Source: Rhabdochlamydiaceae bacterium (lineage in GTDB: Bacteria > Chlamydiota > Chlamydiia > Chlamydiales > Rhabdochlamydiaceae). Taken from it: a stretch of 56,692 nt of DNA. The notes beneath the pieces are model-generated. The model was not told the DNA's origin and did not search any database. It worked only from the letters and a program-made list of their open reading frames with translations. This document shows positions 16,275-50,318 of this stretch, one piece after another. The stretch is from positions 1-56,692 of the forward strand of contig DAHXNQ010000091.1 in the NCBI GenBank assembly GCA_027365315.1. The letters run 5' to 3'. Both the position numbers and the translations under genes were made by a program. How positions within the stretch are numbered: position 1 is the stretch's first letter; every line of letters starts with the position of its first letter.

Positions 16275-16440
16275 TGACTTATAAGTACACCAGGCATCGA
16301 GTATACATATTGAGAGAGTACCTCGAGCTTTAAGTGGAAAGGCTAGCTAGACATGGTCGTTTATTTCTATGAGAAAAGTGCAATTTGCATCAGCACAAAC
16401 TCAGCAATATCGAGACCGGGGGACTGGCCTCGAGGGCAGG

Positions 16441-35348: not shown

Positions 35349-35576
35349 ATGACCAAAGCAAAGAGATCCTCCAAGCGAGAAAAATCCTCAAAAAACAAGC
35401 CGAGGCTTCGTCTTAAAAAGGGCATTAAGTTGTCTAAGCATGATCCATTCAAAGCTCTCGTGGATGAAAAGCTCATCGCTCAAGCTCTTTGGGAATGCTT
35501 GAAAGAGAATGACCTCGAGGGGGCGATAGAAATAACCAACGCTCATTTGAAAGCTCTAGCGGCTGCGGAAGCATGA
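35349..35576 (+). CDS. Small ORF, possibly a truncated 'addiction-module antidote' remnant
   Basis: 75 aa with a Lys/Ser-rich N-terminus. HDPFKALVDEKLIAQALWECLKENDLEGAIEITNAHLKAL resembles only the N-terminal part of HigA/TIGR02684-type antidotes (fd.aeyL.deE.i..yL..aLee.D). No HTH follows. Confidence 0.35.
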   Translation: MTKAKRSSKREKSSKNKPRLRLKKGIKLSKHDPFKALVDEKLIAQALWECLKENDLEGAIEITNAHLKALAAAEA

Positions 35577-35600
35577 AGAAGATCCGGTGAGCGAATAGCG
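35562..35600. repeat. Dispersed element, copy D (internally deleted)
   Basis: GCTGCGGAAGCATGAAGAAGATCCGGTGAGCGAATAGCG is copy A minus about 31 internal nt. It directly abuts the duplicated ftsQ 3' end. Confidence 0.55.
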
Positions 35601-35634
35601 CGTCATCGACCTGCACCTCGTCTATCTCGATTGA
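35600..35634 (+). repeat. Duplicated ftsQ 3' end (copy 2, includes a TGA)
   Basis: See 35296..35339. Confidence 0.6.
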
Positions 35635-35687
35635 TGAAAAATCTTTCCTAGCATAGTGTAGAAGCCACAAAAACTCTTTGGAGTGGC

Positions 35688-37433
35688 GTGATGCACTATC
35701 CCTGCATGTGGCTCTGGAGGCTATTTCTCCCGATCTTTCTCTGTTCTCTCTTTTTTGCTGCTCCAAGCCTGCCTGCACAGGAGATTCACTCTGTTCCTCA
35801 GCCTCTTGCTCGTCTGCATGGACTTCTTTCCGGCGTCTGGTGTCAGCCACTAGAAGGGGCCTCTTCTTACGAGCTCCTGCAATACAGCTGCGAGGAATTG
35901 GCCTCTATTTGCGAAGAACTTGCCGATCTAATCGAACAAGATAGAGAAGAGGATACACCTTATATTCGTCACACGACAGAGCTGCTTTTGGGACTTATGC
36001 AGAGGGCAGAGCCTTATCTCCCTGAGGAAGAGTGGGGGAAGTGGGCCTATGAAGTGGCTACGTTGCAGCTGCTTCTGCAGCTGCTAGACGAAGAAGAGCC
36101 TGTTTACGAGGAGAGTGGCTGGCACACCATTCCGTGCAAAAGTAAGGGCTTTTGGAAAGGGATTGGGAATGGACTTGCCTCTGTGAAGCACGAGGTGGTG
36201 AAAGTGGTACGCCATCTTGGAAGAGAAATCCGTGAACATCCCGTTCGCTCTCTTGTCATCGCCGGTGCTGCAGCGGGTCTTGGCTTTGGTATCTATACCT
36301 GCTGCAACTCTTCCTCGCATGCGGCTGATCCAGTCCCTCATGGCAATGCTTTGCCTCCGGAACAGTCGTCGCCACCGATCCCACGGCAAGAAGAGCGATC
36401 AGAGTCACCTCCTCCTAATGAACAGCGAGAGCTTCAGACTCTCGTATTTGATCTTGTCGCAGTAGATACGGTGCAAGATGTACCTTCCTCTCTCTCTGAT
36501 AGCGGTGCATATTTTCTTGATGAGACAAGTATAGAAGCGCGTTTTGCTGCCCATACGGAGGAACTCTACCGTGCAGGGGTAGAGGCGGTGAAGGGCATTG
36601 TGCATGGAGCGATTGACTTTCAGTGGCGGACCGTTCAGGACCTAGAGGCATTTGCCTTTCTCATTGGATCGGGAGAGGTGGAGGCCTCTTTCGATGAAAG
36701 AAGAATGATCATGGACTCTTTCTTGAGATCGCAGGTCTCACAGGAAGCCGCGGTTGAGGGTTGGGTTCAGGATGTGTTCAATATCGATCCTTCAGATCCA
36801 ACCTACCAACAGTTCCGTTCAGGCACAGAGAAGACGCTCGAGATCGGATCGATTGCTTTTGGGGTTTACGGGATAGGCAAGGGAATCATGAAGATTGGCA
36901 CCAGAATGGTGGTCGCAGAGCTAGGGGAGTTCCTCTATGCTGGTCGCAATGTAGGAGGCGAATTGGCCCTCGCAAAGGAGTGCGTTGCTGGGGCTCATCA
37001 ACTGGAGAAGGCGGCAGTTGCAGAGGTTCGTGCCGGTCGCATCGCTGCGAACGAACTGACTCCCGCAGCTCATCGATTGGAAAAATTGGCCGAGGCCGAG
37101 GCTTGTGCTGGCAGGGCTGTAAGAGATTGGCCCGTATCAACGGAAAAAATTCGATCTTATTTATCTGATGCTAAGTTATTAAGTGGAGATCAAATTATTC
37201 ATGACCTGGAGTCGATTGGTTTTAAAATCAAAGGCAAGAGTCCGGACGGTAGATTTATAGAATTTCAGGATGCGCTTGGCAATGTCAGAGTAAAAATGCA
37301 TCCTCCGGATCGAGTGACTGAATATAACCATTTGCACATATATGATCAGTTTGGGAACTCCCTCAACAAGGATTTAGAAGTAGTGGATCGATGTTCTCAA
37401 GAGGCGCATATTCTTTTTGGGGATTCTCCATGA
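35688..37433 (+). CDS. Secreted, polymorphic-toxin-like protein with a low-GC C-terminal module
   Basis: Signal-peptide-like N-terminus (WLWRLFLPIFLCSLFFAAPSLPAQ), internal TM (SLVIAGAAAGLGFGIYTCC), and a tandem AH(Q/R)LEK...AGR repeat. The last roughly 100 aa (LLSGDQIIHDLESIGFKIKGKSPDGRFIEFQDALGNVRVKMHPPDRVTEYNHLHIYDQFGN) are encoded by DNA that drops to about 28-40% GC. ATG at 35691, GTG at 35688. Confidence 0.6.
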   Translation: MMHYPCMWLWRLFLPIFLCSLFFAAPSLPAQEIHSVPQPLARLHGLLSGVWCQPLEGASSYELLQYSCEELASICEELADLIEQDREEDTPYIRHTTELLLGLMQRAEPYLPEEEWGKWAYEVATLQLLLQLLDEEEPVYEESGWHTIPCKSKGFWKGIGNGLASVKHEVVKVVRHLGREIREHPVRSLVIAGAAAGLGFGIYTCCNSSSHAADPVPHGNALPPEQSSPPIPRQEERSESPPPNEQRELQTLVFDLVAVDTVQDVPSSLSDSGAYFLDETSIEARFAAHTEELYRAGVEAVKGIVHGAIDFQWRTVQDLEAFAFLIGSGEVEASFDERRMIMDSFLRSQVSQEAAVEGWVQDVFNIDPSDPTYQQFRSGTEKTLEIGSIAFGVYGIGKGIMKIGTRMVVAELGEFLYAGRNVGGELALAKECVAGAHQLEKAAVAEVRAGRIAANELTPAAHRLEKLAEAEACAGRAVRDWPVSTEKIRSYLSDAKLLSGDQIIHDLESIGFKIKGKSPDGRFIEFQDALGNVRVKMHPPDRVTEYNHLHIYDQFGNSLNKDLEVVDRCSQEAHILFGDSP

Positions 37434-37804
37434 GGATATTGGATGCTGAGATGATGAAACACCTCTCTTTTCCAGATTGTTTGGTCGAAAAGATGGAATT
37501 ATCGCATGGCAAGAAGCACTTAGTTGTCATGGTGGATGGGGCTTGGTTGGATCTATCTGGAGGACAAGCTCTTGGAAGAGGCGTTTTGTATTTCTCTGAT
37601 TGGAGCGAACTGATGGTGCGGGCGTGGGATCATACTACAGAGACCTGGTCAACATTGGAGGGTGAGTCTATCGAGATTCTAAGAGAGTTATGCGAAGCAA
37701 AGTTTGATGACAAAACCGCTTGTTTACGTGGATTTGGCGAACGAAGTGGTAGATGGATCGAGTGGAAAATGGACGCAGTCATGGTGAGGTCAGAATTTTC
37801 CTGA
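37430..37804 (+). CDS. Candidate cognate immunity protein
   Basis: The ATG overlaps the toxin stop (ATGA at 37430..37433). It is a 124-aa cytosolic-looking protein (MRILDAEMMKHL...), and one 60-nt line (37441..37500) counts 40% GC. I recognise no family. Confidence 0.5.
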   Translation: MRILDAEMMKHLSFPDCLVEKMELSHGKKHLVVMVDGAWLDLSGGQALGRGVLYFSDWSELMVRAWDHTTETWSTLEGESIEILRELCEAKFDDKTACLRGFGERSGRWIEWKMDAVMVRSEFS

Positions 37805-37968
37805 CAATGGATCTCGCATGAGGATTACATCCTATTCCGCGTGGGAAGAGATGGGGTTTCATCTTGTTTATGCTGATATGCGATGGAAATGAGGGCTTTT
37901 CTGGTGGGGAAGGCGGCGGCTGATTATGCTGCTGAGTGCACTCGGAACTGAACTCCTAAGAGGGGAGT

Positions 37969-38256
37969 ATGAAAGAATTTGTTTTGTACATTGTGAAAAA
38001 CTTAGTAGAAAAACCTGCTAGCGCTGCTGTGACGATGCGCGAAGAGGGCGAAGTGCTCTATTTTGAGATCAGCGTCGATGCGGGCGATGCGGCGAGGGTG
38101 GTGGGGCGCAAAGGGCGCAACATCCAGTCTCTGCGCACGCTGGCTACAGCTGTGGCGGCCCGTTTTGGCAGAAAGGCGCGCCTGAATCTGGCCGATGAAC
38201 TGGCCACCGTCGAAAAGCGGGAAGGTGCAGCCGAAGAGATTGCAAATCCTGTGTAG
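37969..38256 (+). CDS. KH-domain RNA-binding protein (YlqC/UPF0109)
   Basis: 95 aa. VVGRKGRNIQSLRTLA contains the GxxG KH motif. Confidence 0.85.
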   Translation: MKEFVLYIVKNLVEKPASAAVTMREEGEVLYFEISVDAGDAARVVGRKGRNIQSLRTLATAVAARFGRKARLNLADELATVEKREGAAEEIANPV

Positions 38257-38309
38257 AACAATTTGCGCTCGATATCTAGACTGGCACCGTAAGAGAAGGA
38301 TGGATTGCG

Positions 38310-38675
38310 ATGACAGTAGAGCTTCGAATTGCCGAAGAGCAGCGTGGTGATGTGCTGCTTCTGCGTCTGGTGGGAAGACTGGATGTGATGCATGCACCTC
38401 TTTGCGATAAGGTGATCACCACCTCCGCTTCGAGGGGCGTGCGCTTTGTGGTGATCGACCTTTCGGGTGTGGAGTATCTCAGTAGCGCGGGGCTGCGTGT
38501 GCTGCTGGCCGGTTCGAAGGCTTTAGAGAGTCGCTCGGGGAAGCTACTGCTGGCTGGGCCTGCAGCGCCTGTATTGCAGGTACTGAAGATGTCCGGCTTC
38601 GACCGGATTCTTCCCATCTTCCTCACCGAGGATGAAGCGGTGGAGTCGTTGCGTGGCCGTGAGACAAAGCAGTAG
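38310..38675 (+). CDS. rsbV: STAS-domain anti-sigma-factor antagonist
   Basis: 121 aa. VVIDLSGVEYLSSAGLRVLL contains the phosphorylatable Ser context. Confidence 0.85.
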   Translation: MTVELRIAEEQRGDVLLLRLVGRLDVMHAPLCDKVITTSASRGVRFVVIDLSGVEYLSSAGLRVLLAGSKALESRSGKLLLAGPAAPVLQVLKMSGFDRILPIFLTEDEAVESLRGRETKQ

Positions 38676-38684
38676 GCGCTAAGG

Positions 38685-39713
38685 GTGATCCCAGGGATCG
38701 AAGTTGAAGATGAAGAGCTGGAGCGTCTGCTCCAGCACTTTACGCTGCCAGAGAGGCAATTTTTGCCCACCAACACCAAGAAGGCGAAGGTGCTGGTGCT
38801 GGCGGGTCCCACTGCAGTGGGCAAAAGTGCTCTCGCCATCCAGATTGCACGTCTGGTGGGCGGGCAGGTGGTCTCGGCAGATTCGATGCAGGTCTATCGC
38901 GGCATGGATATCGGTACTGCCAAGCCCTCTATGGCCGAGCGGGAGGAGATCCCGCACCATCTGATCGACATCCGCGATGTCTCCCAAAAATTTCATGTAG
39001 CCGAATTCTACGAAGAGGCCACCTCGGCGATTCGTCGGATCATCGATGAGGGGGCGGTGCCCATTGTGGCAGGCGGCACCGGCTTTTATCTCCATGCGCT
39101 GCTCTATGGCCCTCCATCGGGCCCCGCTAGCGACCCCGCTGTCCGCCGCGCCATCGAGGCCGAGATGGATGAGAAAGGGCCGCTTCCTCTTTTTGAGAGG
39201 CTGAAAGAGAAAGACCCTCTCTACGCCTCAAGCATCACCCGCAGCGACCGCCACAAGATTGTGCGGGCACTCGAGATCATGCAGCTGAGTGGCAAGAGGG
39301 TCTCCGACTTCTCCGCCTCGGCTGGTGGCTGCGCCGATAAATACAACTTCCGCTGCTGGTTTCTCCATCTGCCCAAGGAGCAGCTCTACTCGCGCATCGA
39401 GGCGCGCTGTGACAAGATGATCGATGCTGGCTTGATCGAAGAGGTGGAGCGTCTCAAAGAGCAGGGGCTCGAGCAGAACGAGACCGCCTCACAGGCGATT
39501 GGCTACCGGCAGGTGCTGGACTATCTCGCCTCCTCGCAGGACGAAGAGGCGCATCGGCATCTGGTACGCGAGTTCAAGCAGGCGTCGCGCCGCTATGCCA
39601 AAAGGCAGTTCACCTGGTTTCGCAAGGAGCCGCTCTTCCGCTGGCTCGACCTCAGCCGCTTCCAGCTGGAGTTGGCCACCGAGCTGATTCTGCAGGATCT
39701 CGAGCTTAGTTAA
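38685..39713 (+). CDS. miaA: tRNA dimethylallyltransferase
   Basis: LAGPTAVGKSALAIQIA, SADSMQVYRGMDIGTAKP and YAKRQFTWFR are present. Confidence 0.9.
   Translation: MIPGIEVEDEELERLLQHFTLPERQFLPTNTKKAKVLVLAGPTAVGKSALAIQIARLVGGQVVSADSMQVYRGMDIGTAKPSMAEREEIPHHLIDIRDVSQKFHVAEFYEEATSAIRRIIDEGAVPIVAGGTGFYLHALLYGPPSGPASDPAVRRAIEAEMDEKGPLPLFERLKEKDPLYASSITRSDRHKIVRALEIMQLSGKRVSDFSASAGGCADKYNFRCWFLHLPKEQLYSRIEARCDKMIDAGLIEEVERLKEQGLEQNETASQAIGYRQVLDYLASSQDEEAHRHLVREFKQASRRYAKRQFTWFRKEPLFRWLDLSRFQLELATELILQDLELS
39476..39713 (+). repeat. 238-bp direct repeat, copy 1 (the authentic miaA 3' end)
   Basis: It aligns base for base with 43615..43852, with roughly a dozen mismatches and no indels. Confidence 0.9.
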
Positions 39714-39856
39714 AAAATAAAATTAATTCCATCGTTTACTCTGTTCTCTTTGTCCGGTTTTGTAGTTGCAGCGACAGGGGTGCGGATATGATATAGATTT
39801 TCTTCTGTCTATGCTCTACAAATCAGGATGACATTTCTTGATTTGAGGAGCTCTTT

Positions 39857-42800
39857 ATGTCTGCTTCATTTGCCTCCCGGCGCACTGCCTTGGTGTGCGG
39901 TCTTATTTGCTTTGCGCTAGCGGAGAGGTCGAGCCCCTTGATGGCGGGGACGGCCTATACGGTGAATTCGGCGGCAGACACGAATACGGGAGTGGGAAGC
40001 GCGGGGACGCTCCGCTACTGCTTGACACAGGCGAATGCAACGGGTGGCGCTGGGAGCACGATCACCTTCGACAGCAACTATAACATCGTCCTCACTTCGA
40101 TACTTCCCCCCATAGGTTCCAATTTGGCGAGCATCACGGGTTTTGCTGGGGCCTCGGTGAGTGGGAACAATCTGTATCCTGTTTTCTTCGTCAACAGCTC
40201 CAATCCACTCACTCTCTCTACATTACTGATCCAAAATGGCAACTCGACGGGAGGCGCCGGGGGTACAGGTCAATTCGGCGGGGGCGGCGCTGCTGGTGCT
40301 GGTGGTGGCTTGCTGCTGCAGCCAGGAGCCAATGTGACGGTGAACAATATGGCCTTCAATCAATGCTCGTCCGTAGGCGGTGCAGGAGGAGATGGCACAG
40401 CCAACATCATCACTGGCGGTGGCGGCGGTGGAGGGATCTTCGGTGCTGCCGGGGGCCCAGGAGGCGTGGGCAACAGCTCTACGGGAGTTGGTGGCGGCGG
40501 TGGTGGTGGCGGGGGCGTAGGTCTCCTCGGAACGGGTGGCACCGGTAGCTATGGCGGTGGCGGTGGCGGCGGCTTCCAGAATGGTGGAGGCTCGGGCGAT
40601 GGATCACCTGGTGGTGGCGGTGGCGGCGGTGCAGGGAGCAGCGGAGCAGGAGTGGCCTCTTCAGGAGTGACGGGCGGTACAGGGGGAGCGGGAGGCAGCG
40701 GCGATACGGCGGGAGCGGGAGGAACCCAGGGACACTCTGGGGGCAGCTCGAGCAACACATCGGGAGGCTTGGGCTCCGCTGGAGGCGGCGGTGGTGGAGG
40801 TAACGGATCCCCACCGACAACGATCGCGGGAGCAGGAGGCGCGGGAGGAGAAGGAGGCGGTGGTGGCGGTGCTGGTGGAAGCACCTTCAATGGCGGCATG
40901 GGGGGCAATTCAAGCGGGAGCTTCGGTGGCGGGGGTGGCGGGGGCGGTGCTGGGGGCATCTCCGCTACCCATGTAGGCGGCGTGGGAGGTCAGGGGAGCT
41001 TTGGCGGGGGCGGCGGAGGCGGCGGTGCGGCGGCCACCTCCCCACCTCCTGGTAACCAGTCGGGTACAGGAGGTGCAGGTGGGTACCTGGCCGGCGGTGG
41101 AGCCGGAGGAGGCAACTCAGGGGGCGGCGGATTTGGCGGCGGCGGCGGCGGCGGGAGTCTCAAGGGCAATGCGGGCTCGTTTGGAGGCGACGGCTTCACC
41201 GGTGGAGGCGGTGGTGGAGGGCTCGGCGGTGCGATCTTTGTTCCAGCTAATGGGGTCCTCACTTTGGGCACCGGTGTGAGCTATACCAATAACAACGTGG
41301 TAGCGGGGGCAGGAGGCGGGGGCAATAATCCAGGCGACAAGGGAGATCCGGGGCAAACTTCGGGTCCCGATCTCTTCATACAGGGAGGCGCTACGCTCGT
41401 CTGCAACCCCAGCGATATGCTCACCTTCCCGCAACCGATTGGAGGAATCAAGGGCTCTGGCGGCTCTCTCACAATGAACGGCACGGGGACCCTTGTTCTC
41501 CCTCCGAACAGCACCTATGTGCTCTCCAATCAATTCACCAGCGGCACTGTGCAGATCTCCGATGACACTTCTTTAGGAGGCTCGAGCAATACCGTCGCCC
41601 TTTCTGGAACTGCCATCCTAGCGGTCACAGCAACAACCTCCACCAGTAGGAGCATTACGATCACGGGCTCGCCGCAGATCTCTGTCGCCTCAGGAGACAC
41701 CTATTCGATCAACAGCCCCATCTCGGGGAGCGGCGTATTGGGGATCGCTCAGGGAACCGTGCTCCTCAACGGCGCCAATACCTACGATGGAGGCACCTCC
41801 ATCGCCGTAGGCGCCACGCTCCAAGCTTCGACCCAAACACTTCCTACCACGGGGAACATCAATCCCGATAATGGAACACTTGTCCTACTCCAATCCACCT
41901 CGGGTACCTACGCCCAAAACATACTCGGATCGGGCGCACTGATCACAGAAGTTGCCCCTAGCGCCACCCTGACGTTGGGTGGTGTGATCTCACTAGCTAA
42001 TTGGTCACTTGCCCTCGCCGCCAACCAAACCTCAGCGGGGTCTGTGGTCATAAATAACAGCGCAACGTTCACCAACTCACCCACGATGGCAGCGGGAACA
42101 GCCCTGGGCGGAGATGGCTCTCTCTCGTTTAGTGGCACAATGCTCGTCAACGGGACGATCACTCCGAGCGCATACGGCGCCAATCTCTTCTCCACCCTCA
42201 CTCTAGGCGCCTGCACCTTTACGAGCGGCTCGCAGTTGGTGATCTATCTGGGCGGCGAGCTCACATCGGATGCGATCACCTCTTCGGGAGTGGTCGAATT
42301 TGAGTCGGGTTCGCAGATTGTCCTGCAGCCCACCTCAGCCTTCTCCTCAAAATTCCTGCCAGGCGAGACGTTCACTTACACAGTGGTGATGGCCGATGGA
42401 GGGACCATAGGCTCCACCCCCACTGTGAACTCATCCTTTATGCCGCTACAGTGCGCCGTTTCGATCTCCGATCCTCCGGGGCAATGGATCATTACTGTGT
42501 ATGCCAACAGCTTCTACAGCCTCACGGAACAGCCCATTGCCGGTGCCTTCGATGATTTGGCCGCAACCAATCCTCCCGGCTACGGTACCGTCCTCGTCGC
42601 CCTCAACAGCCTCACCACGATAAGCGCCCTCGAGCAAGCCTTCAATCAGATGAGCGCGGCGTGTGCCAGTTCTCTGGCCCTCGCGGAAGAGAACGTAGCC
42701 GAACGGGTGCGCGCCCTCTACACCGAGCATCTCCTCGAGCAACACCGCCTCACCTGCCCTAGCGAAGCGAGCCACCCCTGGAGCCTCTGGGTGACTCCCT

Positions 42801-43615
42801 TTGGGGAAAAGGTGCAGCAACGAAACGGCGGTCAATGCAGCGGCTACCGCGAATGGTTCTGGGGGGTTGCCTCCGGAGTGGATTATCGCAGCCACGATTT
42901 CCTCGTCGGTGGAGGCTTCACCTACGCCCACGGCCACCTCAACTGGGGACACCAAGGCACCGGCAACTTCAACACCTACTCAGGCACCCTTGCAGGGGTC
43001 TGGGCACCGGCTCACTTCTCTCTCGATGTGGCCTTCTCCTACGCCTACAACCCCGGTCACGGCAACCGAACGATCCAGATTGCTGCGCTGCAGTCCAAAG
43101 AGCACTACCGCGAAATCGGCAACTCCTACATGAGCCACCTGGGCTTCCTTTACGATTTCGATTTCCATCGCGATGACAACCTGACCTGGAGCCTCTGGCC
43201 GTTTTTGAACATAGACTATGTCTACCTGCACGAGACAGCCCACACCGGAAGTGGCGCCCAGGCGCTCGACCTCCACGTCGATAGCAAGGGCTACGACCTC
43301 TTCCGTCCCGAAGTAGGCCTCGGAGCGAGCCTCCTCAAGTGCGCTCGCACCTACGAGCTTCTCCTGGAAGTGTCGGCGAGCTATGCCCGCGAATCGCGCT
43401 TCATGGGCAAGCACACCACCGCCCACTTTGCTGCCGGCTCTACCGACTTCACCGTCTCGAGCTTCTCCCCCCAGAATAACCTCTTTTGTCCTACCGTTCG
43501 GTTCCTCGTCAGCACCCCTGGCAGCCGCTTCAGCGCTATCCTGGGCTATCACGGCGACTTCGGCTCGAACTTTACTGAAAACGAAGGTGAGCTAGAGCTC
43601 AAGGTGGCGTTCTAG
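39857..43615 (+). CDS. Polymorphic membrane protein (Pmp)-type autotransporter with an extreme Gly-rich passenger
   Basis: Signal peptide; FxxN motifs (ITFDSNYN, MAFNQC); the GGAI motif (LGGAIFVPANG); and a C-terminal beta-barrel-like domain with alternating aromatic residues, ending ...LELKVAF. GAGGAG SD is present. Confidence 0.85.
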   Translation: MSASFASRRTALVCGLICFALAERSSPLMAGTAYTVNSAADTNTGVGSAGTLRYCLTQANATGGAGSTITFDSNYNIVLTSILPPIGSNLASITGFAGASVSGNNLYPVFFVNSSNPLTLSTLLIQNGNSTGGAGGTGQFGGGGAAGAGGGLLLQPGANVTVNNMAFNQCSSVGGAGGDGTANIITGGGGGGGIFGAAGGPGGVGNSSTGVGGGGGGGGGVGLLGTGGTGSYGGGGGGGFQNGGGSGDGSPGGGGGGGAGSSGAGVASSGVTGGTGGAGGSGDTAGAGGTQGHSGGSSSNTSGGLGSAGGGGGGGNGSPPTTIAGAGGAGGEGGGGGGAGGSTFNGGMGGNSSGSFGGGGGGGGAGGISATHVGGVGGQGSFGGGGGGGGAAATSPPPGNQSGTGGAGGYLAGGGAGGGNSGGGGFGGGGGGGSLKGNAGSFGGDGFTGGGGGGGLGGAIFVPANGVLTLGTGVSYTNNNVVAGAGGGGNNPGDKGDPGQTSGPDLFIQGGATLVCNPSDMLTFPQPIGGIKGSGGSLTMNGTGTLVLPPNSTYVLSNQFTSGTVQISDDTSLGGSSNTVALSGTAILAVTATTSTSRSITITGSPQISVASGDTYSINSPISGSGVLGIAQGTVLLNGANTYDGGTSIAVGATLQASTQTLPTTGNINPDNGTLVLLQSTSGTYAQNILGSGALITEVAPSATLTLGGVISLANWSLALAANQTSAGSVVINNSATFTNSPTMAAGTALGGDGSLSFSGTMLVNGTITPSAYGANLFSTLTLGACTFTSGSQLVIYLGGELTSDAITSSGVVEFESGSQIVLQPTSAFSSKFLPGETFTYTVVMADGGTIGSTPTVNSSFMPLQCAVSISDPPGQWIITVYANSFYSLTEQPIAGAFDDLAATNPPGYGTVLVALNSLTTISALEQAFNQMSAACASSLALAEENVAERVRALYTEHLLEQHRLTCPSEASHPWSLWVTPFGEKVQQRNGGQCSGYREWFWGVASGVDYRSHDFLVGGGFTYAHGHLNWGHQGTGNFNTYSGTLAGVWAPAHFSLDVAFSYAYNPGHGNRTIQIAALQSKEHYREIGNSYMSHLGFLYDFDFHRDDNLTWSLWPFLNIDYVYLHETAHTGSGAQALDLHVDSKGYDLFRPEVGLGASLLKCARTYELLLEVSASYARESRFMGKHTTAHFAAGSTDFTVSSFSPQNNLFCPTVRFLVSTPGSRFSAILGYHGDFGSNFTENEGELELKVAF
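40238..41342 (+). repeat. Low-complexity GGN-rich coding tract inside pmp
   Basis: About 370 codons are dominated by Gly runs (e.g. GGGGGGGIFGAAGGPGG, VGGGGGGGGGVG, FGGGGGGGS) encoded by imperfect GGC/GGT/GGA/GGG repeats. Confidence 0.8.
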
Positions 43616-43852
43616 AACGAGACCGCCCCACAGGCAATTGGCTACCGGCAGGTGCTGGACTATCTCGCCTCTTCGCAGGACGAAGAGGCGCATCGGCACC
43701 TGGCACGCGAGCTCAAGCAGGCGTCGCGCCGCTATGCCAAAAGGCAGTTCACCTGGTTTCGCAAGGAGCCGCTCTTCCGCTGGCTCGACCTCAGCCGCTT
43801 CCAGATGGAGTTAGCCACCGAACTGATTCTGCAGGATCTTGAGCTTAGTTAG
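43615..43852 (+). pseudogene. Duplicated miaA 3' fragment (direct repeat copy 2)
   Basis: It encodes ...LDYLASSQDEEAHRHLARELKQASRRYAKRQFTWFRKEPLFRWLDLSRFQMELATELILQDLELS, matching the last 66-79 aa of MiaA. It has no upstream catalytic part. It starts at the last base of the pmp stop codon. Confidence 0.9.
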
Positions 43853-44648
43853 TCTCTCTTGTATAAAATTCTTTTGACAATAGTACAGCTTGGAAGAAGG
43901 GCTCCTCTTCGGTTGGTGTCTGGAATGTAAAGAGCATTTTGTTTTCGAAATAGGGCATTTTCTCCCAGAGAAGCAGAGCTTGAGCGGCTACGCCCCCTTG
44001 GGGATCGAGGAGAGCGAGCTCATATTCTTGCTCTGTGTGTTGGGTCAGCCTCAGAGAAGCTTTGATCTCTTGTTTTTTGGTGATCGAGCAGTGAGCGATG
44101 AGACCGCCATCCTGCTCCACCTCTTTTTTCATCTCGACTGTTCCCAAGAAGCTCATATTTGCCTTGAGTTGGATGAACTCATGCAGTCCGGTTTCAATAA
44201 TACTCTTTGTGTTGGCCGGTTGTGCAGGTTTGTCCGAGGGGGGATCTATGGGCTTTTGTTGGGGTAGCTCTTCGGTTGGTGGCGTGGGCTTGCTTGAAAA
44301 GGGGTCTGAAAGGGGTGGAAGGGGCGACTCTGTGGGTTTGGGTTCGGGCAGATTCTCTTTCTTTGAGGCTGCGGAGACATGGAGAAGAGCCGGTGGGTCT
44401 TCGGAATGCGGAGCAGGTGAGCGAAGAGCGAACCGGCTAGGGAAGAGCCAGGCGAGAAACTTGACTAGCTTCTCCTTGATTCCGGAGAGGATTCTCGAGA
44501 GGAGCGAAGAGTAAGGGGCTGCGGAAGCATGAAGAGGATCCAGTACATTTTCGTAATGTGGAGCTGGTGAGCGAAAAGCGAGCCGGCTGACTGCAGGCGT
44601 CGGGGTGCTGCTTGCGGCGCTTGGGGGAGAGACGGAGCTGATGGACAT
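43845..44648 (-). CDS. Hypothetical Pro/Ser-rich protein carrying two copies of the dispersed element
   Basis: 267 aa. It contains RLAFRSPAPHYENVLDPLHASAA and RFALRSPAPHSEDPPALLHVSAA 50 residues apart, a Pro-rich linker and a C-terminal globular part. I recognise no family. Confidence 0.5.
   Translation of the reverse strand: MSISSVSPPSAASSTPTPAVSRLAFRSPAPHYENVLDPLHASAAPYSSLLSRILSGIKEKLVKFLAWLFPSRFALRSPAPHSEDPPALLHVSAASKKENLPEPKPTESPLPPLSDPFSSKPTPPTEELPQQKPIDPPSDKPAQPANTKSIIETGLHEFIQLKANMSFLGTVEMKKEVEQDGGLIAHCSITKKQEIKASLRLTQHTEQEYELALLDPQGGVAAQALLLWEKMPYFENKMLFTFQTPTEEEPFFQAVLLSKEFYTRETN
44368..44437. repeat. Dispersed 70-nt element, copy B (intragenic)
   Basis: About 90% identical to copy A by eye. 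Confidence 0.75.
44518..44587. repeat. Dispersed 70-nt element, copy C (intragenic)
   Basis: It lies exactly 150 nt from copy B. The ends are conserved (GCTGCGGAAGCATGAAGA... ...GGTGAGCGAAAAGCGAGCCGGC) and the centre has diverged. Confidence 0.7.
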
Positions 44649-44733
44649 GGTGATGGTTTCCGTTCTTGAAGGAAATGGGGGCCAGTTTAACCGATCTTAT
44701 TTTTGCCCGGGCTGGTAAAATTTAAACCGCATA

Positions 44734-46653
44734 TTGGATTGGTTGATTGCTCTCTCTGATGCTGAAAAAGAGAGAGAGCTGCTATCCTCTGCAGCCTTAC
44801 GCCTCTATAGTGGCCGGGGCGTCTCAATTAGGATTCGATCGATGGAAAGTGAGCAAGATGTGCAGGGTAAGGAAGGAGAGGAGCATGCTGTCCCTTCCTC
44901 AGCGGAGACAGTGAAACCCAGAGAGATGAGCCCAGAGATCAGTCCGGAGGTGAAGAACGAGGAGAAAAAGGAAGAAGTTCTGCCTCCACAACTCTCCGAA
45001 GAGGAGGCGCGCGTTGCGATCCAGCAAGGATTTGAGGGGATGCGTGTTGCTTTGGCGAGAGTGCCCCATCCCGATTTTAAGAAATTCTGGGAGGTGCGCA
45101 CCGCTACTGTGCCGCTACTGAAGCTGATCACCGACTCGAAGGAGCGCAGTCTCTTTTGGGACGAGGTGGCGCGCTTGTCGCTGGAGGCAAAGCGCTCGAA
45201 AGAGCATCTGGAGCAGGCCTCAGCCTTTGCTGTCGAGCAGATTCGTCTAGCGGTCGATGCCATCGACAAGGATCTGCAGCGCTTCGACGAGTTGGTGGCC
45301 CTCATTCCTGAGGCGGCCGAGCTGAAGCAGTGTCAGTTTTTAAAGGAGCATGCCGAGTTCTATCTGAAGGCGCAGCGCGAACTGAAGCTGCTGACAGGTT
45401 TAGCAAGCAAGCTGCAGGGGCTGCGCAAAGAGGTTCTGGCAACAGAGATGCGCATGCGAGACAAGGTGAAGTTTCTCGAGCGCCTCAGCAAGCTGGGCGA
45501 TCTGCTCTTTCCTCGCAGAAAAGAGCTTCTGAAGAATGTTTCCGAAAGATTTTTAACCGATATAGGCGCCTTTGCCGAGAAATTTTTCCCTGCGGGGCAG
45601 ATGGCTCAGTCGGCCCATCTAGGAGCTGTGCGTGAGGGGATCCAGCAGCTGCAGCAGGTGGCGAAGATGTTGGCGCTAGCGCCTCAGGCTTTTGGCGAAA
45701 GCAGGACTCTCTTAAGCGGCTGCTGGGAGCAGCTGAAGAAACGCGAGAAGGAGCGCAAGGAGCAGGCGAACGCTGAAAAGAAACGTGAGGCGCAAGCCGG
45801 TGGAAAACGTCAGGAGGCGGAAGGTGGTGAAAAACGGGAATCTGGTGAGCGAAGAAAACGCGGGCCTGGCAGCGGACCCGATGGAAGGCGCCCCGAAAGA
45901 AAGAGTAAGGATCCGGTAGCTCCACTTGTGCTGAGCGACAAGGGCCAGCTGGTAGCGGGCAAGGTGCGCGCTTTCGCCGAAAAATGTGCTGCGGGCGCCT
46001 TTTTGGCCGAAGCGGCCATGGAGGCCTCAGAGGCTCTTCTGGACGAGATGAGGGAGATGCGTCTGCCCAGAGAAGAGGAGAAGCGTTTGCGCGGAGATCT
46101 GTTGGATGCGAGAAAGCCTCTTCAAGACCAGCTGCAGCAGAAGCAGCAGGCGCTTGTGGCTGCGCGCGAAGAGCAGGACCGCCGCATCGCTGAGAAAGGG
46201 GCCGAACTGAAGAGGCAGCTGCAGCAACTGATGGACGAGGCGGACAAGCTGGCCATTACAGAATTACAAGAGAGGCGCGATCAGATCGCGGATCAGATAC
46301 CTTCGCTATCTCTTTCGAAGCTGGAGCGTCAGCGCGCCGAGCAGCAGCTAGCGCGTATCCGCGAACGCATCGCCGACCGCAAAGAGGAAGAGCTGCTGGC
46401 AGCCGATCCCGCTTTGGCGCAGTCGATGCAACATCTCGAGCAGATGTGGGAAGAGAGGCAGGCGCGTCGTCTCCAGTCGAAGCAGCAGCTCGAGAGCTAT
46501 CGCAAGGCGATGGGCGGTTCGGGGCTCGATTTTGAAAAGGCGATGATCTACCAAGATCTCTGCGATGCCGAGCGCGCGCGTCTGGACAAGCTGACCGAAG
46601 AGATTGAGGAGATCGAAGAGAAGATCGCCGTTCTCTTGCCCGAACAGGACTAA
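44734..46653 (+). CDS. Large charged coiled-coil protein
   Basis: Glu/Lys/Arg/Gln/Leu-rich with heptad-like stretches throughout. The start is probably the ATG at 44842 (MESEQDV), since 44734 is TTG. I recognise no family. Confidence 0.55.
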   Translation: MDWLIALSDAEKERELLSSAALRLYSGRGVSIRIRSMESEQDVQGKEGEEHAVPSSAETVKPREMSPEISPEVKNEEKKEEVLPPQLSEEEARVAIQQGFEGMRVALARVPHPDFKKFWEVRTATVPLLKLITDSKERSLFWDEVARLSLEAKRSKEHLEQASAFAVEQIRLAVDAIDKDLQRFDELVALIPEAAELKQCQFLKEHAEFYLKAQRELKLLTGLASKLQGLRKEVLATEMRMRDKVKFLERLSKLGDLLFPRRKELLKNVSERFLTDIGAFAEKFFPAGQMAQSAHLGAVREGIQQLQQVAKMLALAPQAFGESRTLLSGCWEQLKKREKERKEQANAEKKREAQAGGKRQEAEGGEKRESGERRKRGPGSGPDGRRPERKSKDPVAPLVLSDKGQLVAGKVRAFAEKCAAGAFLAEAAMEASEALLDEMREMRLPREEEKRLRGDLLDARKPLQDQLQQKQQALVAAREEQDRRIAEKGAELKRQLQQLMDEADKLAITELQERRDQIADQIPSLSLSKLERQRAEQQLARIRERIADRKEEELLAADPALAQSMQHLEQMWEERQARRLQSKQQLESYRKAMGGSGLDFEKAMIYQDLCDAERARLDKLTEEIEEIEEKIAVLLPEQD

Positions 46654-46657
46654 GCGG

Positions 46658-47242
46658 ATGCAGGCGGCGCTGTTTGGTGGTAGCTTTGATCCGATCCATC
46701 TAGGACATCTAGCCCTCATCCGAGGGCTGACGGAGAGTGGACGATTTGAAAAAATTTTTATATGTCCAGCTGGGATTTCGCCTCACAAACTGGCGGCGCC
46801 GCCCGTAGCAACGGGGCCGCAAAGGGTCGAGATGGCTCGTTTAGCTTGTGAGGGGCTATCCATTTGTGAGGTGATCTCCGATGAGGTGGAGCGAGGTGGG
46901 CCCTCTTATACAATCGATACGGTGCGGGGGTTGCTGAAGAGGCTGCCGCCTGGCAGCAGCCTGCGCCTGGTGTTAAGTATTGCTTTGACCACTTCCTTTC
47001 CCTCCTGGAAAGAGGCTGAGGAGCTGGTGCGTCTGGCACCTCCGCTGTGGGTGCAGCATGGAGAGCTGACGCCCGATCTAAGTTCTTCATTCTATAAAGA
47101 TAAAAATTTTGAATTAATTCGCCTGGAGACGCCCGCCATTTCCAGCACAATGGTGCGGCAGATGCTGAAAGAAAAGTGCTCTTGCCTTCACCTACTACCG
47201 GCAAACGTGGTAGACTATATCCAGCATCAATCCTTATACTAA
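46658..47242 (+). CDS. nadD: Nicotinate-nucleotide adenylyltransferase
   Basis: LFGGSFDPIHLGH and ISSTMVR are present. The start is set to the ATG at 46658. Confidence 0.9.
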   Translation: MQAALFGGSFDPIHLGHLALIRGLTESGRFEKIFICPAGISPHKLAAPPVATGPQRVEMARLACEGLSICEVISDEVERGGPSYTIDTVRGLLKRLPPGSSLRLVLSIALTTSFPSWKEAEELVRLAPPLWVQHGELTPDLSSSFYKDKNFELIRLETPAISSTMVRQMLKEKCSCLHLLPANVVDYIQHQSLY

Positions 47243-47254
47243 CCAAAATAATTT

Positions 47255-47620
47255 ATGACCGATCCTGAAGCCCGCCTTCATGCCATCGCCCAGGCGATCT
47301 ACGACAAGAAGGGAAGCAATATCCTAGCACTCGATCTACGAGGTATCACCGGCCTCACAGACTATGTGATCATCGCCGAGGGCAATGTCGATCGCCATGT
47401 GGTGGCGATTGCCTCTCATGTCGAGCAGACGCTAGGAAAGATGGGAGAGTCTCCCGCCTACATGGAGGGGATGGAGAGTGGCGAATGGGTGGTGATCGAC
47501 TATATTGATGTGATGGTACACATTTTCATCCCCTCTCTGCGTGAGCGCTATCGGCTAGAGGAGCTCTGGAGGAAGGGGAAGATTGTTGATCTGAAGATCA
47601 ACCTGCAAGCAGAGGTGTAA
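47255..47620 (+). CDS. rsfS: Ribosome silencing factor
   Basis: DYVIIAEGNVDRHV and WVVIDYIDVMVHIF are present, and the gene follows nadD in the usual nadD-rsfS order. Confidence 0.9.
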   Translation: MTDPEARLHAIAQAIYDKKGSNILALDLRGITGLTDYVIIAEGNVDRHVVAIASHVEQTLGKMGESPAYMEGMESGEWVVIDYIDVMVHIFIPSLRERYRLEELWRKGKIVDLKINLQAEV

Positions 47621-47624
47621 GCTT

Positions 47625-48887
47625 ATGGCGAAAAAGCGGATTGTAGTCACAGGCATGGGGCTGGTCTCCTGCCATGGCAATGATGTAGAACAGTTCTATG
47701 ATCGGCTGTTGGCTGGCGAGAGCGGCGTCAAGCATATCGACCAGTTCCCCTGCGAGGACTATCCAACCCGAATCGCAGCTCCTATCTCCAATTTTGATGC
47801 GGGTGACTATCTCGACAAGAAGCAGGCGCGCAGAGTCGACCCCTTCATCGCTTTTGGTGTTGTAGCGGGCAAAAGAGCGCTCGAATCGAGCAAACTGCCC
47901 TATAGAGATCTGGCCTCGTCGGGGCTGAATCTTCAGCGCTGCGGCGTGCTGATTGGCTCGGGTATGGGCGGCATGACCACCTTTTCGGAGGGGGTAGAGA
48001 CCCTTATGACAAAGGGGTTCAAACGCATCACACCCTTCTTCATTCCCTACATCATCCCCAATATGGCAGGCGCTCTTCTAGCCATCGATATCGACTTCAT
48101 GGGGCCCAACTATTCGGTTTCGACCGCCTGCGCCACCTCTAACTACGCCATCCATCTTGCTGCGCGCCATATCCGCGATGGCGATGCCGATCTGATGCTC
48201 TGTGGAGGTGCCGAGGCATCTGTCACACCGATTGGACTGGCCGGTTTTGTACAGTGTAAAGCGCTCTCCGAACGCAATGACGAGCCTACGCGCGCTTCGC
48301 GCCCCTGGGATCAGGGTCGCGATGGCTTTGTACTGGGCGAGGGGTCGGGTGTACTGGTGCTTGAAAGCCTTGAGTATGCGCTGAAGCGCGGCGCTCCCAT
48401 CTACGCTGAATATCTAGGAGGGGGGCTCTCCTGCGATGCCTACCACATGACCGATCCGCGCGAGGATGGAAAAGGGGTGGCGCTCTGCATCGAGGCGGCG
48501 CTACAGGAAGCAGGTATTGCCAAAGAAGAGATTAACTACATCAACGCACACGCTACCTCCACGCTGGGGGGCGATATGCGCGAGATCGAAGGTCTGAAAA
48601 AGCTGTTTGGCTCCCATCTAGAAAAGGTGGCGATCAATGCCACCAAATCGATGATCGGCCACTGTCTGGGGGCGGCTGGCGCCATTGAGGCGATTGCTGT
48701 AATTCAGGCGATCAGACGCGGCGAGCTGCACCCCACTATCAACCAGGAGAATCCAGAGCCTGGTGTGGCGGGACTCGATCTGGTTCCTAACAAGTCGAAG
48801 AAGCTCCGTGTGAAGGCGGCGCTTTCTAACTCTTTTGGATTTGGCGGACACAACTCCTGCCTCATCTTTGCCCCCTACAATGGTTGA
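47625..48887 (+). CDS. fabF: 3-oxoacyl-ACP synthase II
   Basis: The active-site Cys (STACATS) and both His motifs (NAHATST, GHCLGAAG) are present, along with NSFGFGGHN. Confidence 0.9.
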   Translation: MAKKRIVVTGMGLVSCHGNDVEQFYDRLLAGESGVKHIDQFPCEDYPTRIAAPISNFDAGDYLDKKQARRVDPFIAFGVVAGKRALESSKLPYRDLASSGLNLQRCGVLIGSGMGGMTTFSEGVETLMTKGFKRITPFFIPYIIPNMAGALLAIDIDFMGPNYSVSTACATSNYAIHLAARHIRDGDADLMLCGGAEASVTPIGLAGFVQCKALSERNDEPTRASRPWDQGRDGFVLGEGSGVLVLESLEYALKRGAPIYAEYLGGGLSCDAYHMTDPREDGKGVALCIEAALQEAGIAKEEINYINAHATSTLGGDMREIEGLKKLFGSHLEKVAINATKSMIGHCLGAAGAIEAIAVIQAIRRGELHPTINQENPEPGVAGLDLVPNKSKKLRVKAALSNSFGFGGHNSCLIFAPYNG

Positions 48888-49315: not shown

Positions 49316-49318
49316 GCC

Positions 49319-50125: not shown

Positions 50126-50318
50126 GCGAGCTTTCGAAGCGTTGAGCTTTTTCAGGCCGATTTGCGCAATATAGTGGACCCCAAAAACTGGACCAGGATT
50201 GGGGGCAAGGTCACACCCATAGAGGTCTTCAACGGGTGCCAAATGGAGGCTACCGTTGTTGCACTTCGGAGTTGAAAAGGCGATTCCATCTGTATACTGA
50301 ATGGACTTTTAATTAACC

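What the first reader, a model, noticed from the sequence alone, without database searches (positions are those of the whole stretch)
39476..43852. A pmp autotransporter cassette bracketed by a 238-bp direct duplication of the miaA 3' end
39476..39713 (the real miaA end) and 43615..43852 align without gaps at roughly 95% identity. The 3.9 kb between them contains only an AT-rich promoter region and the pmp gene. The second copy begins on the last base of the pmp TAG, so the barrel ends in its terminal Phe exactly at the junction. The second copy's end also supplies the stop region of the convergent gene 43845..44648. This resembles attL/attR-type or Campbell-type integration into the 3' end of a conserved gene, with the target end regenerated. 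No integrase is present in the window.
Basis: seen in the sequence. Interest (0 to 1): 0.65.

Follow-up and report, generated by a model that had tools for sequence, protein, structure and literature searches.

The report
Stray miaA fragment beside inserted autotransporter
In an uncultured chlamydial genome, about 5 kb of extra DNA carrying an outer-membrane autotransporter gene sits just after the tRNA-modification gene miaA, and the 238-base "repeat" is a decaying stray copy of the miaA end lying inside that insertion, not the footprint of a mobile element integrating into miaA.

Summary
The repeat is real: 39475-39712 and 43614-43851 match without gaps at 228/238 (95.8%). The att/Campbell reading does not hold.

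- **Empty site.** A relative with 82.7% identical miaA DNA (L085, GCA_027451245.1) has miaA followed directly by the homolog of the 44734 gene. It lacks the autotransporter, the second repeat copy and the 43845 ORF.
- **Insertion boundaries.** The extra DNA is about 5.0 kb (39744-44757). It starts 30 nt after the miaA stop codon and is flanked only by a 4-nt CTCT.
- **Position of the copies.** Copy 1 keeps both ancestral flanks. Copy 2 has novel DNA on both sides, so recombination through the repeat did not insert the gene.
- **Decay of copy 2.** With L085 as outgroup, copy 2 carries all four amino-acid changes, two at conserved MiaA positions. Copy 1 has only silent changes.
- **No mobility genes.** No recombinase, transposase or terminal inverted repeats were found.
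- **Gene identity.** The gene is a classical autotransporter with a passenger stretch (residues 130-460) that is 52% glycine. It is not a canonical Pmp.
- **The 43845 ORF** is an ORFan that contains a dispersed DNA repeat.

Most likely history: an illegitimate insertion, then a secondary ectopic copy of the miaA end. Ordinary genome-plasticity scar; low interest.

The parts
38685..39713 (+). Intact miaA (tRNA dimethylallyltransferase), 342 aa
   Evidence: Pfam IPPT E = 9e-83. 57-62% identical to MiaA of Chlamydiota/Rhabdochlamydiaceae MAGs. 91.3% aa and 82.7% nt identical to L085.
39475..39712 (+). Repeat copy 1 (R1): the functional, in-place 3' end of miaA
   Evidence: Contiguous with ancestral sequence on both sides. 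Its 3 derived changes relative to L085 are all at third codon positions.
39714..39743 (+). Ancestral 30 nt downstream of miaA, ending in TACTCTG; left edge of the insertion
   Evidence: Local alignment to the L085 post-stop sequence: 0 of 2000 shuffles reach the score.
39744..39856 (+). Novel AT-rich leader (GC 0.41) with a GAGGAG ribosome-binding site before the autotransporter ATG
   Evidence: No match in L085 or any related locus. Sequence read; GC.
39857..43615 (+). Autotransporter gene, 1252 aa: signal-like N-terminus, 52% Gly over residues 130-460, beta-barrel at 977-1205, terminal Phe
   Evidence: PF03797 E = 3.4e-26. Translation; Gly content. Closest homolog P0123 is 58% identical over full length with the same architecture. 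GC3 0.66-0.70, like host genes.
43614..43851 (+). Repeat copy 2 (R2): ectopic miaA 3' fragment (codons 264-342), in frame with the autotransporter just after its TAG; a pseudogene
   Evidence: IPPT profile positions 209-243. 6 derived changes, including S269P, V294A, F297L and L328M. S269 is at least 90% conserved and F297 invariant in 26 chlamydial MiaA. Novel DNA on both sides.
43853..44757 (.). About 0.9 kb of ORFan DNA forming the right part of the insertion. It contains ORF 43845-44648 (-), 267 aa, whose stop codon lies in R2.
   Evidence: Absent from L085. No protein homolog and no Pfam hit at E <= 5. GC3 0.545 versus 0.64-0.74 for neighbours. No nucleotide or translated match in related loci.
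44367..44438 (.). Copy of a ~70-nt dispersed DNA repeat inside the ORFan region
   Evidence: 94% identical to 16440-16510. Read in a different frame at the other sites, so it is a DNA-level repeat.
44517..44588 (.). Second copy of the dispersed repeat
   Evidence: 79% identical to 44367-44438 and 82% to 16439-16510.
44750..44753 (+). CTCT at the right edge of the insertion, matching CTCT at 39739-39742; both correspond to one CTCT in L085 (2087-2090)
   Evidence: Alignments. At 4 nt it could be a microhomology, a tiny target duplication, or chance.
44758..46653 (+). Conserved downstream gene (coiled-coil protein, no Pfam family; likely start ATG 44842), the ancestral neighbour of miaA. Its first 87 nt (44758-44844) are nearly identical to L085.
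   Evidence: 82% nt identity to L085 2095-2588. 35% aa identity, E = 5e-75, to the gene after miaA in L004. Homologs also follow miaA in L005 and L006. 86 of 87 nt identical.

Best explanation
The window's lineage gained about 5.0 kb (39744-44757) in the short spacer between miaA and its conserved downstream neighbour, the 44734 gene. The extra DNA carries a leader, a complete Gly-rich autotransporter gene and about 0.9 kb of ORFan DNA. The 238-nt repeat is not the insertion's boundary. Copy 1 is the untouched, functional miaA end in its ancestral context. Copy 2 is an ectopic duplicate lodged exactly between the autotransporter's stop codon and the ORFan DNA, and it is now decaying as a pseudogene.

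Shown: the empty site, the insertion boundaries, the flank relationships, the asymmetric decay of the two copies, and the absence of any recombinase.

Inferred: all four novel junctions are illegitimate joins sharing only 2-4 nt (CTCT at the outer edges, AG at autotransporter stop / miaA codon 264, TA at the miaA stop / ORFan DNA). The most economical history has two steps. (1) The leader-autotransporter-ORFan block was inserted non-homologously 30 nt after miaA. (2) A local copy-back followed: either the replication fork switched template about 4.1 kb backwards to miaA, copied to its stop codon and returned, or the 4139-bp unit was tandemly duplicated and the second leader-autotransporter copy was then deleted.

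Copy 2 probably has no function. The autotransporter is intact, has a ribosome-binding site and host-like codon composition, and is probably expressed as a surface protein.
For: - Empty site: L085 228-2076 matches window 37886-39728, and L085 2095-2588 matches window 44758-45260, with nothing between them.
- Conserved order: miaA -> 44734 homolog -> nadD -> fabF, with no autotransporter, in L005 and L006; in L004 the contig ends within the 44734 homolog.
- Flanks: the sequence after copy 1 is homologous to the L085 post-stop sequence (0/2000 shuffles). The sequence after copy 2 is not (1481/2000), and it is not homologous to the sequence after copy 1 either (309/2000).
- Direction of change, using L085 as outgroup: 6 changes derived in copy 2 (4 non-synonymous, 2 at conserved MiaA residues), 3 derived in copy 1 (all third position), 1 unresolved.
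- Timing: third-position divergence between the copies is about 8%, against 40% between the window and L085 miaA, so the duplication postdates that split.
- No recombinase or transposase domain in the window, no terminal inverted repeats at the insertion ends, and only one distant tRNA gene.
- Both junctions appear in other assemblies.
- Autotransporter GC3 is 0.66-0.70, like neighbouring genes.
Against: - The order and number of events cannot be reconstructed, because no genome with an intermediate state was found.
- The junction in the 89-92% identical relatives (L093, L096, L097) was not covered by their contigs.
- A 4-nt CTCT and 2-nt microhomologies are too short to distinguish from chance.
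- The only other locus carrying a close homolog (L003) also has an in-frame 3' gene fragment right after the stop codon. That hints at something less random than a one-off accident.
- No reads were available, so assembly correctness rests on contig agreement alone.
Confidence: 0.68

Rival explanations
1. Recombination between two diverged alleles of the locus (homology-facilitated illegitimate recombination). One strain had miaA-30 nt-leader-autotransporter. Another had miaA directly followed by the ORFan DNA and the 44734 gene. DNA of the second strain anchored by homology in the 44734 gene, and its other end joined illegitimately (AG) at the autotransporter stop codon, bringing its own miaA end (copy 2) with it.
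For: This explains why copy 2 is contiguous with the ORFan DNA and why the ORFan ORF ends inside copy 2. One event creates the copy-2 junction. The 86/87-nt near-identity to L085 at 44758-44844 could be a recombination patch at the anchor. Recombination of this kind and single crossovers do create 109-950 bp duplications of the homologous segment in experiments (PMC3240628).
Against: It needs two independent earlier insertions, one in each strain, at the same few nucleotides of the spacer (the left edge at L085 position 2091 and the right edge at about 2087-2094). No genome with either parental arrangement was found. All 4 amino-acid changes lie on the copy-2 branch, two at conserved sites. 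That fits decay after the event as well as or better than divergence between two functional alleles.
Confidence: 0.15
2. One reading: a circular cassette carrying a copy of the miaA 3' end integrated into miaA by site-specific (attL/attR) or Campbell-type recombination through the 238-nt segment, regenerating the gene end.
For: The layout resembles e14 in icd, where a 163-bp 3' end is duplicated and a pseudo-icd' fragment is left behind (PMC6379469). miaA remains intact. The copies are direct repeats bracketing the autotransporter.
Against: Copy 1 has both ancestral flanks and copy 2 has none. The empty site shows the extra DNA extending 30 nt to about 900 nt beyond the repeats. No integrase lies in the insert or the window. 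A circle carrying repeat + 30 nt + leader + autotransporter could only arise from a genome where the autotransporter was already inserted 30 nt after miaA. At best, therefore, this describes the secondary duplication and not the arrival of the gene.
Confidence: 0.06
3. The insertion is ancestral to the window and L085 lineages, and L085 lost it by a precise deletion between the CTCT copies.
For: Short direct repeats at both edges would permit slippage deletion.
Against: Three outgroup loci lack an autotransporter between miaA and the 44734 homolog. The two copies differ by only 4%, against 17% between the window and L085. Even so, the insertion would still be an insertion relative to deeper relatives.
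Confidence: 0.06
4. Assembly artefact: two strain variants of the miaA end were wrongly threaded through a repeat, or the autotransporter was misjoined.
For: The source is a metagenome. The longest identical run between the copies is 92 nt. The JGI assembly breaks in the Gly-rich tract, and its contig L001 departs from the window beyond 50283.
Against: The autotransporter/copy-2 join shares only AG, far too little for a k-mer assembler to invent. It is present in JGI contig L001, and the copy-1/leader/autotransporter join is present in L086. Copy 2 carries its own derived substitutions. The Logan contig ends inside the repeat, as expected for a true repeat. The homolog P0123 has the same full-length architecture.
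Confidence: 0.04

Closest known systems
e14 prophage integration into the 3' end of icd in E. coli (gene-end replacement, pseudo-icd')
   Same: A 3' gene end of similar size (163 bp there, 238 nt here) is present twice in direct orientation. One copy completes the gene and the other is a pseudogene fragment (PMC6379469).
   Different: In e14 the repeats are attL/attR at the element's boundaries. An integrase catalyses the exchange, and the displaced fragment stays joined to the original downstream flank. Here the functional copy keeps both ancestral flanks, the stray copy lies inside the inserted DNA, and no integrase exists.
Single-crossover (Campbell) integration and homology-facilitated illegitimate recombination of incoming DNA
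   Same: Recombinase-free routes that duplicate 0.1-1 kb of the homologous segment next to foreign DNA, with short or no homology at the illegitimate end (PMC3240628).
   Different: Those products have the duplicated segments at the borders between resident and incoming DNA. Here that is not the case for the insertion as a whole. It could only apply to the secondary event that created copy 2.
Tandem duplication by illegitimate recombination, or replication template switching (FoSTeS/MMBIR-type copy-back); from general knowledge, not tested here
   Same: Junctions have 2-4 nt of microhomology, a nearby segment (4.1 kb away) is copied in direct orientation, and no mobile-element genes are involved.
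   Different: The process itself cannot be observed from one sequence, and such events are mostly documented in eukaryotes and in experimental bacterial systems.
Chlamydial polymorphic membrane proteins (Pmp) and classical type Va autotransporters
   Same: A chlamydial outer-membrane protein with an N-terminal signal-like sequence, a long passenger and a C-terminal PF03797 beta-barrel ending in Phe.
   Different: No Chlam_PMP repeats or PMP middle domain, and almost no GGA[ILV]/FxxN motifs. Instead it has a passenger stretch that is 52% Gly, and its homologs carry PATR repeats (PF12951).

Membership tests
Site-specific integrative element targeting a gene 3' end (e14/icd type, attL/attR) | Integrase or recombinase encoded in the element | tested here: not met
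   The insert holds only the autotransporter and an ORFan ORF. Pfam/NCBIfam scans of 45 large ORFs of the window found no integrase, transposase or resolvase.
Site-specific integrative element targeting a gene 3' end (e14/icd type, attL/attR) | The direct repeats coincide with the boundaries of the inserted DNA (empty site = one repeat copy joining both flanks) | tested here: not met
   The empty site in L085 places the boundaries at 39743/39744 and about 44757/44758, 30 nt and about 900 nt outside the repeats.
Site-specific integrative element targeting a gene 3' end (e14/icd type, attL/attR) | The displaced original gene end remains joined to the original downstream flank | tested here: not met
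   The sequence after copy 2 is not homologous to the ancestral post-stop sequence (1481/2000 shuffles reach the score). The ancestral 30 nt follow copy 1 instead.
Site-specific integrative element targeting a gene 3' end (e14/icd type, attL/attR) | The target gene remains intact | tested here: met
   miaA is full length with conserved residues. This is trivially true here because copy 1 was never displaced.
Campbell-type single crossover of a circular DNA | Each copy of the homologous segment has one resident flank and one incoming flank | tested here: not met
   Copy 1 has two resident flanks and copy 2 has two novel flanks. It is possible only as a secondary re-integration or tandem duplication.
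Transposon / insertion sequence | Transposase, terminal inverted repeats and a target-site duplication | tested here: not met
   No transposase. No inverted repeat pairing the two ends. Only a 4-nt CTCT at both edges, which is inconclusive.
Illegitimate (microhomology-level) recombination product | Novel junctions with 0-5 nt shared, and no extended homology or recognition site | tested here: met
   AG at 43614-43615, TA at 43850-43851 and CTCT at 39739-39742 / 44750-44753. The 60 nt upstream of the two copies show no significant similarity (1238/5000 shuffles).
Chlamydial Pmp family | Chlam_PMP repeats (PF02415) with many GGA[ILV] and FxxN motifs in the passenger | tested here: not met
   No PF02415 hit at E <= 5. 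One GGA[ILV], and two FxxN motifs in the passenger.
Chlamydial Pmp family | PMP middle domain (PF07548) | tested here: not met
   No hit at E <= 5.
Classical (type Va) autotransporter | C-terminal autotransporter beta-barrel domain ending in an aromatic residue | tested here: met
   PF03797 E = 3.4e-26 over residues 977-1205; C-terminus ...LKVAF.
Classical (type Va) autotransporter | N-terminal Sec signal peptide | tested here: inconclusive
   The N-terminus MSASFASRRTALVCGLICFALAERSS looks like a signal peptide by eye. No predictor was run.
MiaA (tRNA dimethylallyltransferase) | Full-length IPPT domain with a P-loop | tested here: met
   IPPT profile 1-243 of 243 matched, with GPTAVGKS present, for 38685-39713. 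Copy 2 covers only profile positions 209-243.

The most novel reading that the evidence does not exclude
Gly-rich autotransporter genes of this chlamydial lineage may relocate by a recombinase-independent route that leaves an in-frame 3' fragment of a housekeeping gene directly after the barrel's stop codon. It has been seen twice. Here the fragment is miaA', starting on the stop codon. In L003 it is the C-terminal half of a DHDPS/DapA-family gene, in frame with the homolog, with its ATG 18 nt after the homolog's TGA stop (only an in-frame TAG and five codons between). L003 comes from the same sequencing run and has very similar tetranucleotide composition (r = 0.90-0.92), so it may belong to the same genome. 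The roughly 1-kb G-rich (GGN)n tract might stall forks and trigger the template switches.
Probability: 0.1. Interest if true: 0.6.

Novelty: new member of a known kind. Interest (0 to 1): 0.25.

Why it matters
The case shows that a long direct repeat of a gene end around a cargo gene is not enough to call an integrative element. Only the empty site and the flank relationships reveal that the repeat is a secondary scar. For chlamydial biology it documents recent gain of a surface autotransporter at a conserved housekeeping locus in a lineage without obvious mobile-element genes in the 56.7-kb window. It also shows that this locus and the neighbouring cell-division (dcw) cluster are interrupted by several lineage-specific ORFan blocks. 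Beyond that it is an ordinary example of genome plasticity.

Tried and rejected
- **Metagenome scan.** A 26-mer from the repeat core returned only an unrelated chlamydial miaA (L002; 53 nt at 92%), not the source contigs.
- **Genome scan.** The MiaA alignment search was swamped by universal MiaA motifs. Only 2 of 80 loci were chlamydial.
- **Homologs of the 43845 ORF.** None in either protein database, and no nucleotide or translated match in related loci.
- **Extension of the repeat upstream.** An apparent 11/15 match near the autotransporter's 3' end is not significant (1238/5000 shuffles).
- **Extension of the repeat downstream.** The shared ATAAAATT after both copies is not significant (309/2000).
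- **Terminal inverted repeats** at the insertion ends: none.
- **RNA families.** No Rfam hit in the ORFan region or the conserved 87 nt. Folding of the dispersed repeat and of the conserved segment is not better than shuffles.
- **Promoter/terminator scan** of the region: at chance level.
- **Other gene-end duplications in the window:** none by self-BLAST.
- **More distant homologs of the autotransporter** (28-31% identity; three of them, P0125, P0127 and P0129, were looked up) sit at unrelated loci with no gene fragments called beside them.
- **Closer relatives.** The 89-92% identical contigs L093, L096 and L097 stop short of the junction.
- **Non-synonymous versus synonymous changes on the two branches.** Suggestive only (Fisher p = 0.17).
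Full report
**1. The observation**

The window contains a gapless 238-nt direct repeat, 39475-39712 and 43614-43851. It has 10 mismatches (95.8% identity) and self-BLAST E = 3e-107.

- Copy 1 (R1) is the 3' end of an intact miaA, 38685-39713 (Pfam IPPT E = 9e-83).
- Between the copies lie 143 nt of spacer and one 1252-aa ORF, 39857-43615.
- Copy 2 (R2) begins on the AG of that ORF's TAG stop codon, so the protein ends ...LKVAF* at the junction.
- R2 is in the same reading frame as that ORF.
- R2 ends on the TA of its relic stop codon.
- The last 8 nt of R2 hold the stop codon of a minus-strand ORF, 43845-44648.

**2. Is it an assembly artefact?**

Other contigs reproduce the junctions.

- JGI contigs of metagenome 3300024473 cover window 28685-40533 (L086: miaA, R1, leader, start of the autotransporter).
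- They also cover 41241-50283 (L001: end of the autotransporter, R2, ORFan DNA, downstream genes).
- Each JGI contig has a single mismatch to the window, and they break only in the Gly-rich repeat tract.
- A Logan contig of run SRR7268657 (L095) is 100% identical to 30417-39527. It ends inside the 35-nt stretch that is identical in R1 and R2. A short-k graph does this at a true two-copy repeat (assembler behaviour is from general knowledge).

The autotransporter/R2 join shares only 2 nt, which no assembler would invent. R2 also has its own derived substitutions. I rate an artefact at about 4%. The caveat is that these assemblies probably share reads.

**3. What the genes are**

The organism is an uncultured member of the Chlamydiota.

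- The best MiaA matches (57-62% identity) are Chlamydiales, Chlamydiota and Rhabdochlamydiaceae MAGs.
- The window is a housekeeping region: hprK, ptsI, dnaX, a groEL-family gene, murE, mraY, murD, ftsW, murG, murC, miaA, nadD, fabF.
- No integrase, transposase or resolvase domain occurs in any large ORF, and the only tRNA gene is 19 kb away.

The cargo gene is a classical autotransporter.

- It has a PF03797 barrel at residues 977-1205 (E = 3.4e-26) and a terminal Phe.
- It has a signal-like N-terminus and a passenger that is 52% glycine over residues 130-460.
- It is not a canonical Pmp. No Chlam_PMP or PMP middle-domain hit appears at E <= 5. There is only one GGA[ILV] and two passenger FxxN motifs. 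Its homologs carry PATR repeats instead.

The 43845-44648 ORF is doubtful as a gene.

- It has no homolog in either protein database and no Pfam hit.
- Its GC3 is atypically low (0.545 against 0.64-0.74 for neighbours).
- Its N-terminal third is built from two copies of a ~70-nt DNA repeat. That repeat also lies in two intergenic regions of the window, where it is read in a different frame.

**4. The empty site**

The 90%-identity MiaA cluster holds one sequence from a different genome: contig DAIDJS010000135.1 of GCA_027451245.1 (L085). Its MiaA is 91.3% identical in protein and 82.7% in DNA.

- L085 228-2076 aligns with window 37886-39728. This covers the KH-domain gene, the STAS gene, miaA and 15 nt beyond.
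- L085 2095-2588 aligns with window 44758-45260, the 44734 gene.
- In L085, miaA's stop codon is followed by 15 nt and then the ORF homologous to the 44734 gene. There is no autotransporter, no second miaA end and no 43845 ORF.

Three more distant chlamydial loci (L004, L005, L006) have miaA followed by the 44734 homolog, again with no autotransporter between them. L005 and L006 continue with nadD and fabF; the L004 contig ends within the 44734 homolog. The extra DNA is therefore derived in the window's lineage.

**5. Where the insertion really starts and ends**

- The 30 nt after R1 (39714-39743, ending TACTCTG) are homologous to the L085 post-stop sequence (0/2000 shuffles).
- Homology resumes at about 44750-44758 (CTCT..GATGCTG; 0/2000 shuffles).
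- The inserted block is thus 39744-44757, a net gain of about 5.01 kb. It is bounded only by a 4-nt CTCT present once in L085.
- The sequence after R2 is not homologous to the ancestral spacer (1481/2000 shuffles) or to the sequence after R1 (309/2000).
- No inverted repeats pair the ends.

The key consequence is that R1 has both ancestral flanks and R2 has neither. Any recombination through the repeat (attL/attR or Campbell) must leave one ancestral flank on each copy. That model is excluded for the arrival of the autotransporter.

**6. Which copy is decaying, and when it arose**

L085 was used as outgroup.

| Branch | Derived changes among the 10 differences | Nature |
|---|---|---|
| R2 | 6 | S269P, V294A, F297L, L328M and two silent changes |
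| R1 | 3 | all at third codon positions |
| Unresolved | 1 | third codon position |

- S269 is at least 90% conserved and F297 invariant in 26 chlamydial MiaA sequences.
- R2 also has TAG where R1 and L085 have TAA. That G may simply belong to the junction.
- R2 is therefore a pseudogene fragment, and R1 is under purifying selection. The counts are small (Fisher p = 0.17).
- Third-position divergence between the copies is about 8%, against 40% between the window and L085 miaA. The duplication is much younger than that split.

**7. Most likely mechanism**

Four novel junctions exist, each with 2-4 nt of shared sequence:

- ancestral spacer to leader;
- autotransporter stop to miaA codon 264 (AG);
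- miaA stop to ORFan DNA (TA);
- ORFan DNA to ancestral spacer (CTCT).

The two outer junctions map to the same few nucleotides of the ancestral spacer. The leader-autotransporter-ORFan block therefore most simply entered as one piece by illegitimate recombination.

R2 then requires a second, local event. One option is a template switch 4.1 kb backwards to miaA, copying to its stop codon and then returning. The other is a tandem duplication of the 4139-bp unit, followed by deletion of the second leader-autotransporter copy. These steps are inferred, not shown.

The main rival (about 15%) is homology-facilitated illegitimate recombination between two diverged alleles. It would explain why R2 is contiguous with the ORFan DNA. 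It needs two independent earlier insertions at the same spot. Experimental systems do produce 109-950 bp duplications by such routes (PMC3240628).

The autotransporter's GC3 (0.66-0.70) matches host genes. Its source was therefore probably the same or a closely related genome.

**8. The closest homolog locus**

The only close homolog is P0123: 58% identity, full length, same Gly-rich architecture. It lies on Logan contig SRR7268657_19419 (L003) at an unrelated locus, downstream of an ogt-type methyltransferase gene on the opposite strand.

- A 137-aa ORF whose ATG lies 18 nt after the homolog's TGA stop, in the same frame, matches only the C-terminal half of DHDPS/DapA. It aligns to DapA residues 157-240 of 300, including the Schiff-base lysine motif.
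- No repeat flanks the gene within that 13.7-kb contig.
- L003 comes from the same run as L095, and its tetranucleotide profile correlates at 0.90-0.92 with the window, against 0.97 between the window's halves and 0.70 or less between the window and the other loci.
- It may therefore be a paralog in the same genome or an ortholog in a co-resident relative.

Two related autotransporter genes, each directly followed by an in-frame 3' gene fragment, is a coincidence worth noting. It is the basis of the novel case (probability about 0.1). Three more distant homologs that were looked up sit at other loci with no fragments beside them.

**9. Comparison with known systems**

The layout mimics e14 in icd, with its 163-bp duplicated gene end and pseudo-icd' fragment (PMC6379469). 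It fails three defining features: a recombinase, repeats at the element boundaries, and a displaced copy joined to the original downstream flank. It works like an illegitimate-recombination or duplication scar.

**10. Verdict**

This is a new instance of a known kind of event. Interest is low (0.25).

Noticed in passing
window 44758-44844: An 87-nt segment just upstream of the likely ATG (44842) of the 44734 gene is 86/87 identical to L085, although neighbouring genes are only about 82% identical. It begins exactly at the right edge of the insertion. It has no Rfam hit and folds no better than shuffles. It could be a conserved leader or promoter, or a recent recombination patch.
   Followed up: partly
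window 16440-16510, 44367-44438, 44517-44588, partial 35558-35588: A ~70-nt dispersed DNA repeat (up to 94% identical between copies) with a central 8-bp hairpin, GAAGACCC-GGT-GGGTCTTC. It is intergenic at two sites and lies inside the ORFan ORF at the other two, read in different frames. Folding z-scores are only -1.4 to -2, apart from one minus-strand copy at +0.3.
   Followed up: partly
L003 10450-10863 (Logan SRR7268657_19419): The closest homolog of the autotransporter is followed, in frame, by a 137-aa ORF (ATG 18 nt after the TGA stop) that matches only the C-terminal half of DHDPS/DapA. No full-length dapA lies on the 13.7-kb contig. The contig comes from the same run as a contig identical to the window.
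   Followed up: partly
window 27254-31932 and 35688-37804: Lineage-specific blocks of genes with no Pfam family interrupt the otherwise conserved cell-division (dcw) cluster. Three genes lie between ftsW and murG, which are adjacent in L004; two of the three are paralogs (28357-28835 versus 30316-30779, 78%). Two further genes with low GC3 (0.47) lie between the ftsQ-like gene and the KH-domain gene.
   Followed up: partly
window 50283/50284: The terminal 125 nt of JGI contig L001 do not match the window beyond 50283. The 89-90% identical relatives L096 and L097 also lose synteny with the window after 50124. This points to a strain-level rearrangement or a misjoin in one assembly.
   Followed up: partly
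window 11594-11711: A TPP riboswitch (Rfam RF00059, 75 bits) overlaps the start of the longest ORF call (11621) of an MFS-family transporter gene, so the real start codon probably lies further downstream.
   Followed up: no
window 40200-41350: The roughly 1-kb (GGN)n tract encoding the Gly-rich passenger has GC 0.70 and GC skew up to +0.39. It is where the JGI assembly breaks, so its exact length rests on the window assembly alone.
   Followed up: partly
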